DNA of 38,210 nucleotides from IMG/VR virus record IMGVR_UViG_3300044728_000098, positions 1 to 38,210 of that record. One strand, written 5' to 3'. A program made the position numbers and the translations under genes. The stretch is from a virus. Taxonomy: Duplodnaviria > Caudoviricetes. Position 1 is the first letter of the stretch, and every line of letters begins with the position of its first letter. This document shows, one piece after another, positions 5,270 through 28,956 of the stretch. The notes below the pieces were generated by a model. The model made no database searches. It worked only from the letters and a program-made list of their open reading frames with translations, and had not been told where the DNA came from.

Positions 5270-5446
5270 TCAGTCTTTCCATTCGTTGGGATTGATACTC
5301 TGAAGCTGGCTCCAGATAAAGTCGCGAGCTACGACGAGCTTATTAATATTCATTCTTTCAACACCCTTAAGGTGTTCACGCATTGCTTCCTCAGGCAAAA
5401 GCCTATTCAATGCATACAACGCATCTGCTAATTGCTTCTCATCCAT
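5270..5446 (-). CDS. 58 aa hypothetical protein (not in ORF track)
   Basis: AAAGGAGA SD; MDEKQLADALYALNRLLPEE... Confidence 0.65.
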   Translation of the reverse strand: MDEKQLADALYALNRLLPEEAMREHLKGVERMNINKLVVARDFIWSQLQSINPNEWKD

Positions 5447-5468
5447 TTCGTTTCTCCTTTGTTGTAAA

Positions 5469-5523
5469 TGGAGTACCCTGGAAAGGAGTCGAACCTTTCA
5501 ATTACTACCGCTACAGGGTGACC
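5469..5523 (-). ncRNA. Mini tRNA-like element (acceptor stem, T arm and CCA; no anticodon arm)
   Basis: GGTCACCCTG-TAGCGGTAGTAATT-GAAAGG-TTCGACT-CCTTTC-CAGGGTACT-CCA fills an intergenic gap. Confidence 0.55.
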
Positions 5524-5528
5524 AGTAT

Positions 5529-5672
5529 CTATTTACAGATACTCAGGATTACTGCTTCATGCTTCTCGTATACTTCGAGAATTGGATAGCCCAATTCATT
5601 GTCATATACGTAGTTGTTGTACTCTGCGAGAGCGATCTCAAGTGCAATCTTGAGTTTCTCAAATTCACTCAT
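5529..5672 (-). CDS. 47 aa hypothetical protein (not in ORF track)
   Basis: ATGA overlap with 5669..5896; MSEFEKLKIALEIALAEYNNYVYDNELG... Confidence 0.6.
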   Translation of the reverse strand: MSEFEKLKIALEIALAEYNNYVYDNELGYPILEVYEKHEAVILSICK

Positions 5673-6964: not shown

Positions 6965-6993
6965 AGTATAGCACAACGCTCCCCGGTTGTCAA
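6965..6993 (-). promoter_or_regulatory. Strong sigma70/SigA-type early promoter
   Basis: Minus strand TTGACA-17 bp-TATACT with extended -10 TG. Confidence 0.88.
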
Positions 6994-8895: not shown

Positions 8896-9564
8896 ATGGA
8901 GCTAGTTTTCGATCGCCCTACAGAAACCACCGAAGTGGTTGAAATACTGTATCCGAAAGAAACACTCCAACAAGTTGTCACACAGATTGAAGCTCGATAT
9001 TGGCTCACTGGAGAATACCCTATGGGCACACAGTTAAACGAAGCTTTCAGCACTGACTTCACAATTCTCAAGGCGATGCTACCAGCGATAAATAAAGCTT
9101 TAGAAAAACGGGAACTACCGCCTTATGATCCTTGGAAAAGAATTCCTAAGAAAGACGAGCTAGACCCCGCATTCGTAATAGCTGTAAACAGTTTAGTTGA
9201 TATCTCAGATAAAAGAAGTAAGGCCATTAAGCTCAAGGCTGTAGGGATGACGACGCACAAATTTAATGTGCTTCTTAAGTCAAAGCAGAATAAAGCTTAC
9301 TACGAAGCTCGTGCGGAAACTGCTTTTCAAGATGTCCAGCCTGTAGCAAAAACGTCTCTCGGTAGATTGGTCGATTCTGGAGATTTGCAGGCAATTAAGT
9401 ACTACCATGAATTTACTGGAGTACATGACCCAAACAGAGAATTGAACCAGAACTTGAACAAGATCATTTTTCTGTTTATGGAAGTTTTAGTAAGACACGT
9501 CGATCCAAAACTTGTGGATACAATTTCGCAAGAGTTTGAAGTCAAACTTCTGGAGCTAAAATGA
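8896..9564 (+). CDS. Putative terminase small subunit
   Basis: First late-arm gene; helical with an HTH-like segment and GDLQAIKYY. Call is mainly positional. Confidence 0.55.
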   Translation: MELVFDRPTETTEVVEILYPKETLQQVVTQIEARYWLTGEYPMGTQLNEAFSTDFTILKAMLPAINKALEKRELPPYDPWKRIPKKDELDPAFVIAVNSLVDISDKRSKAIKLKAVGMTTHKFNVLLKSKQNKAYYEARAETAFQDVQPVAKTSLGRLVDSGDLQAIKYYHEFTGVHDPNRELNQNLNKIIFLFMEVLVRHVDPKLVDTISQEFEVKLLELK

Positions 9565-10343
9565 ACATAACATCGAGGACTGCATGGGGATCAAAAAAGA
9601 CTTCAATTCCAGTGTTAAATGGGGCTCTTCCTAGAGTTTACATACATCACACCGCAGGCCATTTCCCCAACTCTGTTGAGGAAGAAATTACGCAGATGCG
9701 TACTTTACAGAACTACGCCATTAACACGAAACATTACACAGACATAGATTACAACTGGTTAATTGGTCCCTCAGGAACTGTGTATGAAAGTCGTGGACTT
9801 AATAGAAAAAGCGCCGCAACTTTGGGAGAAAATGAAGTCTCCCGTTCTATATGTCTCATGGGAAATTTCCAAGGAGATATACCAACTACACGAAGTGTGG
9901 AAGCTGTAGCAGACTGTATTAAATTCCTGATAGATCATGGAGATTTAGCAGCGGCTCGTCAGTTAGAAATTCTTGGTCACCGAGACAACCCAAAGCACCC
10001 AAATGCTACGGCTTGTCCAGGTGACCATTTGTATGCATACCTACCAAAGATTCGTGATGCAATTATTGGTCATGAACCCAATCCTGATGGAGATGATGAA
10101 ATGCTCAAGGCAAGATTTGTAAGGCAAAAGGGCTACACCAACGTTTTTGTCGTTGGAGGAGGTTTCCCAGTTCTCCATTGTAGTGGAGAATTGATGAGTT
10201 CGATTGAAACTGAAGATCCTTCAACACCGAAGATTTTCCAAGACAACATGGCTGCAATGCATGGACTTTGCACACAAGCTGGATTGGATATCAATGATCC
10301 AAAACAAGTAGTTCCAGGAGGACCAAATGACCGTTTTGGCTGA
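9561..10343 (+). CDS. Endolysin, N-acetylmuramoyl-L-alanine amidase (PGRP-like Amidase_2)
   Basis: ITSRTAWG, YIHHTAG, DIDYNWLIG..G.VYESRG, GHRD, TACPG. Confidence 0.93.
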   Translation: MNITSRTAWGSKKTSIPVLNGALPRVYIHHTAGHFPNSVEEEITQMRTLQNYAINTKHYTDIDYNWLIGPSGTVYESRGLNRKSAATLGENEVSRSICLMGNFQGDIPTTRSVEAVADCIKFLIDHGDLAAARQLEILGHRDNPKHPNATACPGDHLYAYLPKIRDAIIGHEPNPDGDDEMLKARFVRQKGYTNVFVVGGGFPVLHCSGELMSSIETEDPSTPKIFQDNMAAMHGLCTQAGLDINDPKQVVPGGPNDRFG

Positions 10344-10344
10344 G

Positions 10345-10443
10345 ATGATTGCAGCGGAGGATAGTTCGGCACAGACTATTCTCATCATTATTGCAGCTGT
10401 AGTGCTAATCCTGTGCGGAATCATTTACATAGTCCGTAGATGA
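10345..10443 (+). CDS. 32 aa single-TM microprotein in the lysis cassette (not in ORF track)
   Basis: MIAAEDSSAQTILIIIAAVVLILCGIIYIVRR; its stop overlaps the holin ATG (ATGA). Confidence 0.65.
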   Translation: MIAAEDSSAQTILIIIAAVVLILCGIIYIVRR

Positions 10444-13404: not shown

Positions 13405-15559
13405 TACTGTCAAGGAAGAAGTCGACTATTGGGAGAAGAAGTTTAAAACTTGTGAGAATCTTCGCAAGTCCTATGAACAGCAATGGTATATGAACCTTGC
13501 GTTCTATTTCAGTAAGCAATGGGTTGTATGGCAACAAAGTATTGGTGGTACTGGTGGGCGACTATATAATCCTCCTACTCCTAGAAATCGTGTTCGTCTT
13601 ACGGCAAATCGTGTCAAGCCGATTGTAAGAGATGAACTGACAAAGTTGATTAAGCAGGAACCTCAGTTCTATGCTAAGCCAAATACAACAGACCCTATGG
13701 ATGTTTCAGCAGCTAGAGTGGCAGAAAGTTTAGCTGAATACTGTCTAACTTCTGGTTATTATAACAGAATTAGACGGCAAGCCACATTCTGGATGCTTCT
13801 TTGTGGTACAGGGTATATCAAGACAACGTGTAAGGCGGAGAATACTCCTCTCATTTATGAGAGGATTCCTGCATTTAATATGTACTTCCCGAATCTTGAG
13901 GAAGAAGATATCCAAAATCAACGTTTCGTTATGCATGTTCGTGGCGTTGATCCAGAGGATATTGAGGAAACCTACGATATCAAAGTCAAGACTGATATGG
14001 ATATCGTCAACACGAATCTTGAAGCTAGATTCTTGAGTGCAATTGGAGTTCAGAATCAAGCAGCAGGTGCAAAAGCTGTTCTTGTTAAGGAAATCTGGGT
14101 AAAGCCGTGTAAGAAATACCCAGCTGGTGCAATGCTTGTTATTGGGGATGACAAAATCCTCTACAGGTATAGCCCAGAAGGAACTAAAGTTGATGAAGAT
14201 ACTGGAGTAGAAACTCAAGGTGCAGATGAACTTCCATACGATCATGGAAACTATCCATTTGCTAAAATGGATCACACAGCTAGTGGTCGCTGCTACGGTA
14301 TTTCAACAATCGAGGACATCATTCCACTTCAAAAGGAGTATAACAAGACTCGAAGCCAGATAATTGAAGCAAAGAATCGTATGGCAAAGCCACAAATGGC
14401 TTATACGAAAGGTTCCATTGATGTCACGAAAGTTACTTCTGAAGTGGGGCTTTATATTGCTGTTAATCCTGGGTTCAATCCTCCTACTCCAATTCAAATT
14501 GAGCCCTTACCTCAATATGCATTAGAAGAACCACAACGAATCATCGACGATATGGATGAGATTGCAGGTAGGAATGAAATTTCACGAGGTACTGTGCCTA
14601 CAGGAATTGAAGCTGCGTCGGCTATCGCGTATCTTACTGAACAAAATGATTCCAAGATATATAACACCGTGGCATCCATCGAGGAAGCTACCACAGAGGT
14701 TGGTAAACAGACTTTAGCTTTGATTAATCAGTTCTGGGATGAAGAATACATCGTAAACATTGTCTCTAAGAACAATTCATTTGAAGCTACTCTGTTCAAG
14801 CAGAGTAATCTCACCAACAATATGGATATTGCGGTTGAGCCTGGTTCTATGGCTCCCAAATCCAAAGCTGCAACTCAAGCATTCATTACTGATCTAATGA
14901 AGAATGGGTTGATTCCGCCCGAAAAGGGACTCCGTTATCTGCAAATGAATGAGACTTCTAGGCTTTATGAAGAACTGCAAGCTGATTCAAAGCAGGCGCA
15001 ACGGGAAAATCACGCAATGGCTATGGTGCAAGATCCCACGGCAATGCCCTTTGGAATGCCAAATATGGGAATGGATCAAGGAATGGCGGGGGCAATTGAT
15101 CCTAGTATTAATCCTATGCTTGATCCTATGGGTGCGGGACTAAATGGTGGAGGTATGCCTCCATTAGATATGTCTGGAATGCAAACACCACCAATAAATG
15201 GGATGCCTGTAGACCCAATGGCTATGGGTGGAATGCCTCCAATGAATGGTATGCCTCCACAAAATGGAATGCCTCCTATGATGGGAATGCAACCACCAGG
15301 ACCACCCCAGCCACAAGTATTTCAGCCTAATTCATATGACAATGATGCTGTTCATGTTTATGAACACGAATTGTTTATGAAGTCTCAACAATATGAAGGA
15401 CTGTCTGATTACGTTAAGTCAGTCTTTGAACTTCACCTTACGTTAACTAAGCAGAAAGTGGTGGCCGCACAAAATGTCGGACTTCAACAATCCGGAAATG
15501 CCGGACCTGATAATTCCTCCGTTCCAGCCAACGGACAGCCCCAACCAGTCCCAGCCTGA
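13385..15559 (+). CDS. Portal protein (P22-like podoviral type) with an M/P/G-rich insertion
   Basis: Follows TerL; NRVKPIV, G.GYIK, YPF, YGISTIEDIIPLQKEYNKTRS and SRG...ASAI motifs; GGAG before ATG 13385. Confidence 0.9.
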   Translation: MSKKPFDTVKEEVDYWEKKFKTCENLRKSYEQQWYMNLAFYFSKQWVVWQQSIGGTGGRLYNPPTPRNRVRLTANRVKPIVRDELTKLIKQEPQFYAKPNTTDPMDVSAARVAESLAEYCLTSGYYNRIRRQATFWMLLCGTGYIKTTCKAENTPLIYERIPAFNMYFPNLEEEDIQNQRFVMHVRGVDPEDIEETYDIKVKTDMDIVNTNLEARFLSAIGVQNQAAGAKAVLVKEIWVKPCKKYPAGAMLVIGDDKILYRYSPEGTKVDEDTGVETQGADELPYDHGNYPFAKMDHTASGRCYGISTIEDIIPLQKEYNKTRSQIIEAKNRMAKPQMAYTKGSIDVTKVTSEVGLYIAVNPGFNPPTPIQIEPLPQYALEEPQRIIDDMDEIAGRNEISRGTVPTGIEAASAIAYLTEQNDSKIYNTVASIEEATTEVGKQTLALINQFWDEEYIVNIVSKNNSFEATLFKQSNLTNNMDIAVEPGSMAPKSKAATQAFITDLMKNGLIPPEKGLRYLQMNETSRLYEELQADSKQAQRENHAMAMVQDPTAMPFGMPNMGMDQGMAGAIDPSINPMLDPMGAGLNGGGMPPLDMSGMQTPPINGMPVDPMAMGGMPPMNGMPPQNGMPPMMGMQPPGPPQPQVFQPNSYDNDAVHVYEHELFMKSQQYEGLSDYVKSVFELHLTLTKQKVVAAQNVGLQQSGNAGPDNSSVPANGQPQPVPA

Positions 15560-28539: not shown

Positions 28540-28956
28540 ATGCGTAAGGCCACCGGGTTTTTTTGTCAGGATAACAGTATTCCAACGGCTATCTTTTTCC
28601 CAAAGAGTTACACGGTAGAAGAATCAGCCCAAGCTATTTACTATTGTAATTTATGCGACCGGAACCAGGATTGCCTCAAAATAGCTCTAGGGTTTAAACT
28701 AAATGAGGGTATATTTGGAGGGTTGAGGCCCCAAGATAGAGACAGGGAACTAGTTAAAGAAGCTTCCCAGGCAGCGCGAGCTTTTGTTTCACAGCGAAAT
28801 ACATTGCGTGAGCAGCAGCGTCTTGAATATGAGTCCCAGGCTTCCCCTTCTTATACTCAATATGAGCAAAACCATACCCCATTGGTTTTATCGTGGGCTG
28901 TTGAAGAACAACCTTCTTCCCCAAGAGGGCCGCTAGAGTTTGAATTGATCCTATGA
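28540..28956 (+). CDS. whiB: WhiB-family Fe-S transcription factor
   Basis: C9...FFP...C36xxC39-x5-C45...AL...GIFGG matches the Wbl signature (usually G[VI]WGG). Confidence 0.88.
   Translation: MRKATGFFCQDNSIPTAIFFPKSYTVEESAQAIYYCNLCDRNQDCLKIALGFKLNEGIFGGLRPQDRDRELVKEASQAARAFVSQRNTLREQQRLEYESQASPSYTQYEQNHTPLVLSWAVEEQPSSPRGPLEFELIL

What the first reader, a model, noticed from the sequence alone, without database searches (positions are those of the whole stretch)
5469..5523. Anticodon-less mini-tRNA ending in CCA inside the early operon
Seen (minus strand): ACCCTG pairs with CAGGGT. It stacks on GAAAGG/CCTTTC closing a canonical TTCGACT T-loop and is followed by ACTCCA. The 14-nt connector starts TAGC (like U8-A9-G10-C11) and contains GG (like D-loop G18-G19), but there is no D stem or anticodon arm. 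The 6+6 bp helix equals the canonical 12-bp acceptor-plus-T length. Established: RNase P and CCA-handling enzymes recognise this top half of tRNA. Inference: either a tRNA-mimic processing signal that cuts the polycistronic mRNA, or a decoy small RNA for tRNA-binding or tRNA-targeting host factors.
Basis: partly seen in the sequence, partly recalled or inferred. Interest (0 to 1): 0.78.

Follow-up and report, generated by a model that had tools for sequence, protein, structure and literature searches.

The report
Anticodon-less tRNA mimic punctuating phage operon
An uncultured phage carries, between two small early genes, a 46-base stretch shaped like the top half of a transfer RNA with no anticodon, and because related phages put normal or anticodon-damaged tRNA genes in similar gaps between genes, it likely marks where the host's tRNA-trimming enzymes cut the long viral message.

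Summary
The element is real: minus strand 5519-5474, a perfect 6+6 bp helix closed by a TTCGACT T-loop, no anticodon arm, intergenic, 1.4 kb behind a strong promoter. Such a descriptor hit occurs 2 times in 400 window shuffles. Three other assemblies carry the same stems, so it is no assembly deletion. One correction: in the 12-bp register the 3' end reads A73-C-T, so the CCA lies 2 nt too far out, and 0 of 34 tRNA or tRNA-like elements in this actinobacterial-type podovirus family encode CCA. The family supplies the main evidence. All 34 elements lie on the early/middle strand, and 14 are followed within 2-4 nt by a start codon (background 2.6%). One relative has an anticodon-less element exactly where another has tRNA-Ile. 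A further slot keeps acceptor and T stems while the anticodon arm varies freely. Best reading: a tRNA-derived punctuation mark cut by RNase P and RNase Z, like plant mitochondrial t-elements (0.55). Rivals: decaying remnant (0.22), decoy RNA (0.15). Cutting is inferred, not shown; this copy has no compensatory change and folds only modestly. The scan noted similar mini-tRNAs and tRNA-ATG junctions earlier on other DNA.

The parts
5514..5519 (-). Acceptor-like stem, 5' strand (ACCCTG); A5519 is the predicted +1 and the predicted RNase P cut lies between 5520 and 5519
   Evidence: Sequence; pair probabilities 0.87-0.99; cut site inferred from the 12-bp ruler (PMC11143913, passages)
5500..5513 (-). 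14-nt unpaired connector in place of the D and anticodon arms; starts U8-A9-G10-like and holds a D-loop-like GG; C at 5510 is T in the three relatives
   Evidence: the D-loop reading is an inference
5481..5499 (-). T arm: 6-bp stem GAAAGG/CCTTTC with canonical TTCGACT loop
   Evidence: identical in 3 relatives; ensemble probability only about 0.5
5474..5480 (-). Acceptor-like stem, 3' strand (CAGGGT), and discriminator-like A73 at 5474; predicted RNase Z cut just after it
   Evidence: cut inferred from RNase Z behaviour on CCA-less precursors (PMC1874595, passages)
5469..5473 (-). Start of the trailer, CT-CCA; CT matches the family's usual trailer, CCA is 2 nt out of tRNA register
5520..5528 (-). 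9-nt leader between the upstream stop codon and the helix; identical in the three relatives
5529..5672 (-). Upstream 47-aa ORF of unknown function; travels with the element as one cassette in G003, where both neighbouring genes are replaced
   Evidence: no PHROGs or Pfam hit
5454..5459 (-). Shine-Dalgarno AAGGAG of the downstream gene
   Evidence: Sequence
5270..5446 (-). Downstream 58-aa ORF of unknown function; a different gene follows in G003
6965..6993 (-). Sigma-70-type promoter (TTGACA-17-TATACT, extended -10) heading the leftward early operon
   Evidence: a like promoter lies upstream of the element in all three relatives

Best explanation
The element is an anticodon-less top half of a tRNA sitting between two genes of the phage's early operon, and it likely acts as a punctuation mark at which host tRNA-processing enzymes cut the long message. 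Shown: the 12-bp acceptor-plus-T helix with a canonical T-loop, its intergenic place on the sense strand behind a conserved promoter, and a family habit of putting CCA-less tRNAs or anticodon-damaged tRNA look-alikes between genes of the same transcript. Inferred: co-transcription from the promoter at 6993; RNase P cutting between 5520 and 5519; RNase Z (or another nuclease) cutting after A5474; the result being separate upstream and downstream mRNA pieces with set ends and a released 46-nt RNA that may receive CCA; and descent from a family tRNA gene that lost its D-stem and anticodon arm while the processing handle was kept.
For: (1) Not chance: 1 hit in the window against 2 in 400 shuffles; 29 hits in 22 family records against 0-6 in six shuffles. 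(2) Same stems in 3 of 3 relatives that hold it; contigs of two other studies span it without an indel (runs X3 and X4). Against G003: 1 difference in the 60 nt from stop codon to CCA, 6 in 48 third codon positions of the gene before (Fisher p 0.04), 6 in the 22 trailer columns after. (3) Family: 34 tRNA or tRNA-like elements kept of 38 hits in 34 record sets (1.02 Mb), all on the early/middle strand; 0 of 34 encode CCA, 26 of 34 have C74, and 14 of 34 have an ATG 2-4 nt after N73 opening 31-172 codons against 2.6% at random places (470 of 18,000). Two of these junctions are annotated gene starts in MW202795. (4) Slot swap: G018 has an anticodon-less element where MW202795 has tRNA-Ile(UAU), with homologous genes on both sides (42% over 192 aa, 65% over 201 aa). 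(5) A slot behind the helicase in G001, G003, G004, G012 and L430 keeps the acceptor and T stems (47 of 48 pairs in four lineages, different pair types at 10 of 12 positions) while the anticodon loop is 8, 11 or 13 nt or a long arm. (6) The trailer in G003 resembles the trailer of a true tRNA-Leu in G021. (7) Enzymology: bacterial RNase P cleaves acceptor-plus-T-arm hairpins and measures 12 bp from the T-loop (PMC11143913, PMC4919922; passages); RNase Z cuts CCA-less precursors after the discriminator and RNase P also cuts them (PMC1874595; passages); t-elements work this way in plant mitochondria (PMC1920247, section 35).
Against: No compensatory change among the four copies; they are too close to test pairing. 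Folding is modest: z -1.0; T-stem probability 0.52-0.54 in the window and 0.28-0.29 with the relatives' U variant, against 0.46-1.0 for 8 family tRNAs, because the connector can pair with the T-loop instead. The downstream gene has its own strong Shine-Dalgarno site, so unlike the 14 tRNA-ATG junctions it does not need a cut to be translated. The element was found in no family member beyond the three close relatives; many of those records are fragments. The family elements were picked by pairing and several are close kin, so counts 3 and 5 are not independent events and not a blind covariation test. RNase P works less well without a 3' CCA in register (PMC1874595, passages).
Confidence: 0.55

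Rival explanations
1. A decaying tRNA pseudogene: a family tRNA gene lost its middle by deletion and the rest simply has not eroded yet; it may still be cut, but nothing depends on it.
For: The family carries and loses tRNA genes. Only four near-identical copies are known, with no compensatory change. Folding z is only -1.0. The trailer looks inherited from a tRNA gene.
Against: All 12 pairs are Watson-Crick and the helix is rebuilt as 6+6 rather than 7+5. It differs less than the third codon positions and the trailer beside it. Anticodon-less or anticodon-damaged elements with intact acceptor and T stems recur at other slots of the family across 29-94% protein identity, which pure decay would not favour.
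Confidence: 0.22
2. A decoy small RNA: it is excised like a tRNA, receives CCA, and the stable product titrates host proteins that bind the tRNA elbow or acceptor end, such as tRNA-end-modifying defence toxins (this class of toxin is recalled, not from a call).
For: Early expression behind a strong promoter. The family keeps tRNA shapes that cannot decode. A precedent for a truncated tRNA-like phage RNA as inhibitor is proposed for the TLD-only tmRNA of phage DS6A (PMC4131195, passages). M. smegmatis YrlA is cut by RNase P and receives CCA in vivo (PMC4201824, passages).
Against: Stem sequences of the family elements vary freely, which fits shape recognition by housekeeping enzymes better than a fixed target. 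No alanine G3-U70 identity pair. An RNA without anticodon loop cannot bait anticodon nucleases (inference). One copy per genome. The tight tRNA-ATG junctions point to the mRNA as the product that matters.
Confidence: 0.15
3. An uncut or singly cut structural element that shields or pauses: after a single RNase P cut it stays as a structured 5' cap of the downstream mRNA, or it blocks 3'-5' decay of the upstream part.
For: The downstream gene keeps its own ribosome-binding site 15 nt behind the discriminator, so a retained 5' helix would not block it. The acceptor helix forms robustly in 200- and 400-nt context.
Against: A plain hairpin would do; the canonical T-loop and 12-bp length are not needed for it. 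At the family's tRNA-ATG junctions a 3' cut seems required.
Confidence: 0.06
4. An attachment-site tRNA fragment, an intrinsic terminator or an assembly artefact.
For: Integration leaves tRNA fragments in genomes (PMC9897764, passages); the record is about 89% complete.
Against: Both acceptor strands are present; no integrase among the 29 window proteins scanned; no exact match of the T-arm-plus-acceptor motif in the GTDB genome collection; no U-tract after the helix and no terminator call; four assemblies and two further runs agree.
Confidence: 0.02

Closest known systems
t-elements of plant mitochondria (Forner et al. 2007, PMC1920247; abstract and section 35 read)
   Same: tRNA-like structure with the GGTTCRANYCC T-arm motif, not a decoding tRNA, placed at gene borders of long transcripts; proposed RNase P and RNase Z signal; CCA not encoded.
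   Different: Phage rather than organelle; more reduced (no arm between acceptor and T stem); transcript ends are mapped for t-elements and only predicted here.
Mitochondrial tRNA punctuation (named in the abstract of PMC8601606 in search listing; original papers recalled)
   Same: tRNA genes butt against protein genes and their excision would set mRNA ends; seen at 14 of 34 family elements.
   Different: Uses decoding tRNAs; here the mark has no anticodon and the next gene has a Shine-Dalgarno site.
Acceptor/T-arm hairpin model substrates of bacterial RNase P, and phage-induced RNase P substrates such as P1/P7 C4 RNA (PMC11143913, PMC4919922; passages and reference lines)
   Same: 12-bp coaxial helix with a T-loop.
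   Different: The model substrates are synthetic, continuous hairpins with RCCA in register; this is natural, has a 14-nt internal connector and no in-register CCA.
tmRNA tRNA-like domain and the TLD-only RNA of mycobacteriophage DS6A (PMC4131195, passages)
   Same: tRNA top half without anticodon stem-loop, in a phage of Actinobacteria.
   Different: No G3-U70 pair, no P2 helix, no CCA in register, no Rfam or ARAGORN tmRNA match.
Bacterial YrlA Y RNA (PMC4201824, passages)
   Same: tRNA mimic that is cut by RNase P and receives CCA in an actinobacterium.
   Different: YrlA has D and T stems within a longer RNA next to a Ro60 gene; none of that is seen here.

Membership tests
canonical tRNA | Cloverleaf with D arm and anticodon arm | tested here: not met
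   14-nt connector only; ARAGORN and Rfam negative
canonical tRNA | T arm with TTCRANY loop and 12-bp acceptor-plus-T helix | tested here: met
   TTCGACT; 6+6 bp rather than 7+5
canonical tRNA | NCCA directly after the acceptor stem (encoded or added) | tested here: inconclusive
   Encoded 74-76 is CTC; CCA is 2 nt further; family tRNAs are CCA-less too, so addition after trimming is possible
t-element (plant mitochondria) | T-arm motif GGTTCRANYCC inside a tRNA-like fold that is not a tRNA gene | tested here: met
t-element (plant mitochondria) | Element ends coincide with mapped mRNA ends | not testable with these tools
   Needs RNA end mapping
t-element (plant mitochondria) | Encoded in a plant mitochondrial genome | tested here: not met
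   Tailed-phage genome; it may work like a t-element but is not one
tmRNA tRNA-like domain / TLD-only RNA | Alanine identity: G3-U70 pair and A73 | tested here: not met
   Third pair is C-G; A73 present; identity rule recalled
tmRNA tRNA-like domain / TLD-only RNA | P2 helix below the D-loop analogue; match to RF00023 | tested here: not met
   No helix in the connector; no Rfam or ARAGORN call
YrlA-type Y RNA | D and T stem-loops in a longer RNA beside a Ro60 gene | tested here: not met
   No Rfam match; no Ro60 hit among the proteins scanned, 29 against PHROGs and 17 against Pfam
att-site tRNA fragment | 3' half identical to a host tRNA, with an integrase nearby | tested here: not met
   No exact match in genome contigs; no integrase among 29 proteins scanned; record about 89% complete
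RNase P / RNase Z substrate | Cleavage at +1 and after N73 | not testable with these tools
   Predicted from geometry only

The most novel reading that the evidence does not exclude
This podovirus family runs a mitochondrion-style tRNA punctuation system in which decoding has become optional: tRNA genes in the early/middle transcript are being replaced by dedicated non-decoding processing handles, of which this 46-nt acceptor-plus-T-arm element is the most reduced form. That would mean some phage tRNA genes are kept to cut mRNA rather than to read codons.
Probability: 0.4. Interest if true: 0.75.

Novelty: new variant of a known kind. Interest (0 to 1): 0.52.

Why it matters
Why phages carry tRNA genes is an open question usually answered by codon supply or repair of host tRNA cutting. 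This family shows a graded series at gene borders, from normal tRNAs through ones with 8-13-nt anticodon loops to elements with no anticodon arm, including a swap of tRNA-Ile for a mini element at the same slot. If the cuts are confirmed, tRNA shape itself, as an mRNA-processing handle, is a third reason, and the 46-nt element would be a natural minimal RNase P substrate. Such elements are missed by ARAGORN and Rfam, so they are absent from annotations.

Tried and rejected
ARAGORN and Rfam: nothing at the locus; Rfam gave no family for the mini-like element itself in 15 look-alike loci, apart from a weak T-arm tmRNA hit in L084. blastn of the region against GenBank phages: no match; the element alone gave only chance-level hits (E 0.7 or worse). 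Sequencing runs: no RNA holder listed; run X5 had no contig across 5484-5527; the substitution table was cut, so changes inside the element in X3 and X4 were not seen. Pattern scan of viral contigs with AGTGGTA plus T-arm stopped at 120 of about 560 stretches; 85 of 120 were ARAGORN-called tRNAs at relaxed threshold. The metagenome scan stopped at 120 of about 260, and most hits were, by their codon-like pattern, the antisense of one protein-coding family; it gave no new copy of this element. The upstream 47-aa ORF has only 2 homologues and led back to the same three contigs. A second handle search of 38 records found 3 matches, none an anticodon-less element. MAFFT could not put the family's aberrant elements in register, so no covariance model was built. 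Four of 38 descriptor hits were dropped as likely chance (no ARAGORN call, non-canonical T-loop closure, three inside ORFs of 268-421 codons); keeping them gives 0 of 38 with CCA, 14 of 38 with a near ATG and 2 hits on the other strand. The acceptor pair indices were off by one and were redone; the second Fisher test used 7 trailer differences where the alignment shows 6, and is not used. A 14-bp register (G-C, U-A, bulged C, U73-CCA) puts CCA in place and appears in the energy-minimum fold; I rank it lower because the family trailer A-C-T and the 12-bp ruler both fit the shorter register, but it is not excluded. Literature: ten searches listed no paper on anticodon-less tRNA mimics as processing marks in phage operons; the library lacks most subscription journals, and no supplements were read.

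Full report
Setting. The window is a 38.2-kb virus record, about 89% complete, with terminase, portal, major capsid protein, DNA polymerase, primase-helicase and a helicase. Its capsid protein is 35-37% identical to those of Arthrobacter phage Jasmine, Microbacterium phage Shocker and Cellulosimicrobium phage DS1, and 56% to the metagenomic record MW202795. It encodes a WhiB protein. The host is therefore likely an actinobacterium (inference). A near-consensus promoter at 6993-6965 on the minus strand heads a run of small leftward genes; the scan lists no minus-strand terminator between it and the element.

The observation. The element lies in the 82-nt gap between the stop codon of a 47-aa ORF (5529) and the ATG of a 58-aa ORF (5446). 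It reads ACCCTG, a 14-nt connector, GAAAGG, TTCGACT, CCTTTC, CAGGGT, then ACTCCA. ARAGORN and Rfam do not report it. A structural descriptor finds it once in the window and twice in 400 shuffled windows, so it is more than chance. Its folding energy is not unusual (z about -1.0). The acceptor pairs have probability 0.87-0.99, the T stem only about 0.5, and about 0.3 with the relatives' U variant, because the connector can pair with the T-loop. The model omits tertiary contacts (recalled), and 8 family tRNAs range from 0.46 to 1.0, but this remains a weak point.

Close relatives. An exact scan of viral contigs found three more copies. All have identical stems and one C-to-T change in the connector, and a like promoter upstream. 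Contigs from runs X3 and X4, two other studies, span the element with no indel in it. It is not an assembly deletion, and no relative has a full tRNA here. In G003 the 47-aa ORF and the element travel as one cassette between different genes. Against G003 there is 1 difference in the 60 nt from stop codon to CCA, 6 in 48 third codon positions upstream (Fisher p 0.04) and 6 in 22 trailer columns downstream. This is mild evidence of constraint; there is no compensatory change. Further searches found no more distant copy.

The CCA. In the 12-bp register the base after the helix is A73 and positions 74-76 are CTC; CCA starts two bases later. I then examined the family, gathered by capsid and helicase alignments. 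The motif GGTTCRANTCC occurs in 19 of 36 records, 27 matches against 3 for the control. In 22 records the general descriptor gave 29 hits against 0-6 in six shuffles. In 34 record sets (1.02 Mb, many partial) it gave 38 hits; I dropped 4 as likely chance and kept 34, of which ARAGORN (3 without a readable anticodon) and misses 12. None of the 34 encodes CCA at 74-76; 26 have C74 and 15 read A-C-T, three of these being the window's element and its copies. A 14-bp register with a bulged C that would put CCA in place cannot be excluded.

What the family shows about function. All 34 elements are on the early/middle strand (for G025 by the capsid orientation). Fourteen have an ATG 2-4 nt after the discriminator opening 31-172 codons, against 2.6% of random positions; two such junctions are annotated gene starts in MW202795. 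These are not 14 independent events, since some are kin. With the start codon pressed against the acceptor helix, a cut after N73 would give a nearly leaderless mRNA (inference; that leaderless mRNAs are common in actinobacteria is recalled). Second, G018 carries an anticodon-less element (acceptor, short D-like hairpin, T arm) exactly where MW202795 carries tRNA-Ile(UAU), with homologous genes on both sides. Third, 2.1-3.6 kb behind the helicase and after a shared gene (29-94% identity), G001, G003, G004, G012 and L430 hold elements whose acceptor and T stems stay paired with different sequences (47 of 48 pairs in four lineages, registers set by hand) while the anticodon loop is 8, 11 or 13 nt or a long arm. 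Since these were selected by pairing this is not a blind covariation test, but it shows the top half kept while decoding is lost. The window's record stops before that slot. Fourth, the G003 trailer resembles that of a true tRNA-Leu in G021, which suggests descent from a family tRNA gene.

Mechanism. [quoted passage not shown] In Bacillus, RNase Z cuts CCA-less precursors 3' of the discriminator, and RNase P still cuts them, less efficiently (PMC1874595, passages). Plant mitochondrial t-elements use both enzymes to set mRNA ends (PMC1920247, abstract and section 35). I therefore commit to a punctuation role: cuts at 5520/5519 and after 5474 would split the early transcript and release a 46-nt RNA. 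Every cut is inferred. For this copy the benefit is less plain than at the tRNA-ATG junctions, because the next gene has its own Shine-Dalgarno site; set ends and separate decay rates are the likely gain. Confidence 0.55; decaying remnant 0.22; decoy 0.15; retained structural cap 0.06; att fragment, terminator or artefact 0.02.

Comparison and novelty. It is not a tRNA, not a tmRNA TLD (no G3-U70 pair, no P2 helix; PMC4131195, passages), not a YrlA RNA (PMC4201824, passages) and not an att fragment. It most likely works like a t-element without being one. Ten literature searches listed no description of such marks in phage operons; the library is incomplete. Earlier notes of this scan describe anticodon-less mini-tRNAs and tRNA-ATG junctions in other genomes; they are unchecked and are not counted as support, though they gave me the t-element and DS6A leads; no look-alike stretch of this locus had been noted. 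What this case adds is a single family that shows both features, with a slot-for-slot swap of a tRNA for a mini element. I class it as a new variant of a known kind, interest 0.52.

Noticed in passing
L381:385-454 (G001), L382:7538-7608 (G003), L420:7184-7253: Closest relatives carry, behind the helicase in the part missing from the window, a tRNA-like gene with an 8-nt anticodon loop around CCC, followed 2-3 nt after the discriminator by an ATG.
   Followed up: partly
L396 about 10295-10345 (G018) and MW202795:22964-23037: Anticodon-less element and full tRNA-Ile(UAU) occupy the same slot in front of an oligoribonuclease-like gene.
   Followed up: yes
L390 about 1510-1580 (G011), L394 about 13835-13915 (G012), L430 about 9065-9155, L404 about 1165-1245 (G019): tRNA-like elements missed by ARAGORN; the first three share a D-arm start TAGCAT while the anticodon arm is absent, has an 11-nt loop or is long.
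   Followed up: partly
L216 and L231, about 590-650: An unrelated phage lineage has an 11-bp acceptor-plus-T-arm element with a similar TAGTGGTA connector, one compensatory change (C-G to A-T), NCCA directly after the helix, a promoter just upstream and a ribosome-binding site just downstream.
   Followed up: partly
L023, L031, L056 and like loci, about 290-340: A group of phage contigs has a perfect 7+6 bp acceptor-plus-T-arm element with a 9-nt connector, preceded by a varying hairpin, between a stop codon and an ATG; no Rfam family.
   Followed up: partly
L505:394-437 (Listeria phage P100, record 126,772-126,815 approx.): An unannotated, imperfect element with a T arm and a connector like the window's lies in the tRNA cluster on the tRNA strand; the stretch is 96.7-100% identical in 38 Listeria phage records, but its fold is no better than shuffles (z 0.03).
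   Followed up: partly
L136:24380-24490 (phage DS1): A second short T-arm-plus-stem unit follows directly on tRNA-Glu.
   Followed up: no
L431:11124-11208: A family member carries a tRNA with a CUA (amber) anticodon call, followed closely by an ATG.
   Followed up: no
family records: The family's normal tRNAs mostly read A/T-rich codons (UUA, AGA, AAA, AUA), as expected for A+T-rich phages of a high-G+C host (inference); the window has none of them although it uses these codons.
   Followed up: no
window 28540-28956 (+): WhiB-family transcription factor at the end of the structural arm, overlapping the last leftward gene on the other strand.
   Followed up: partly
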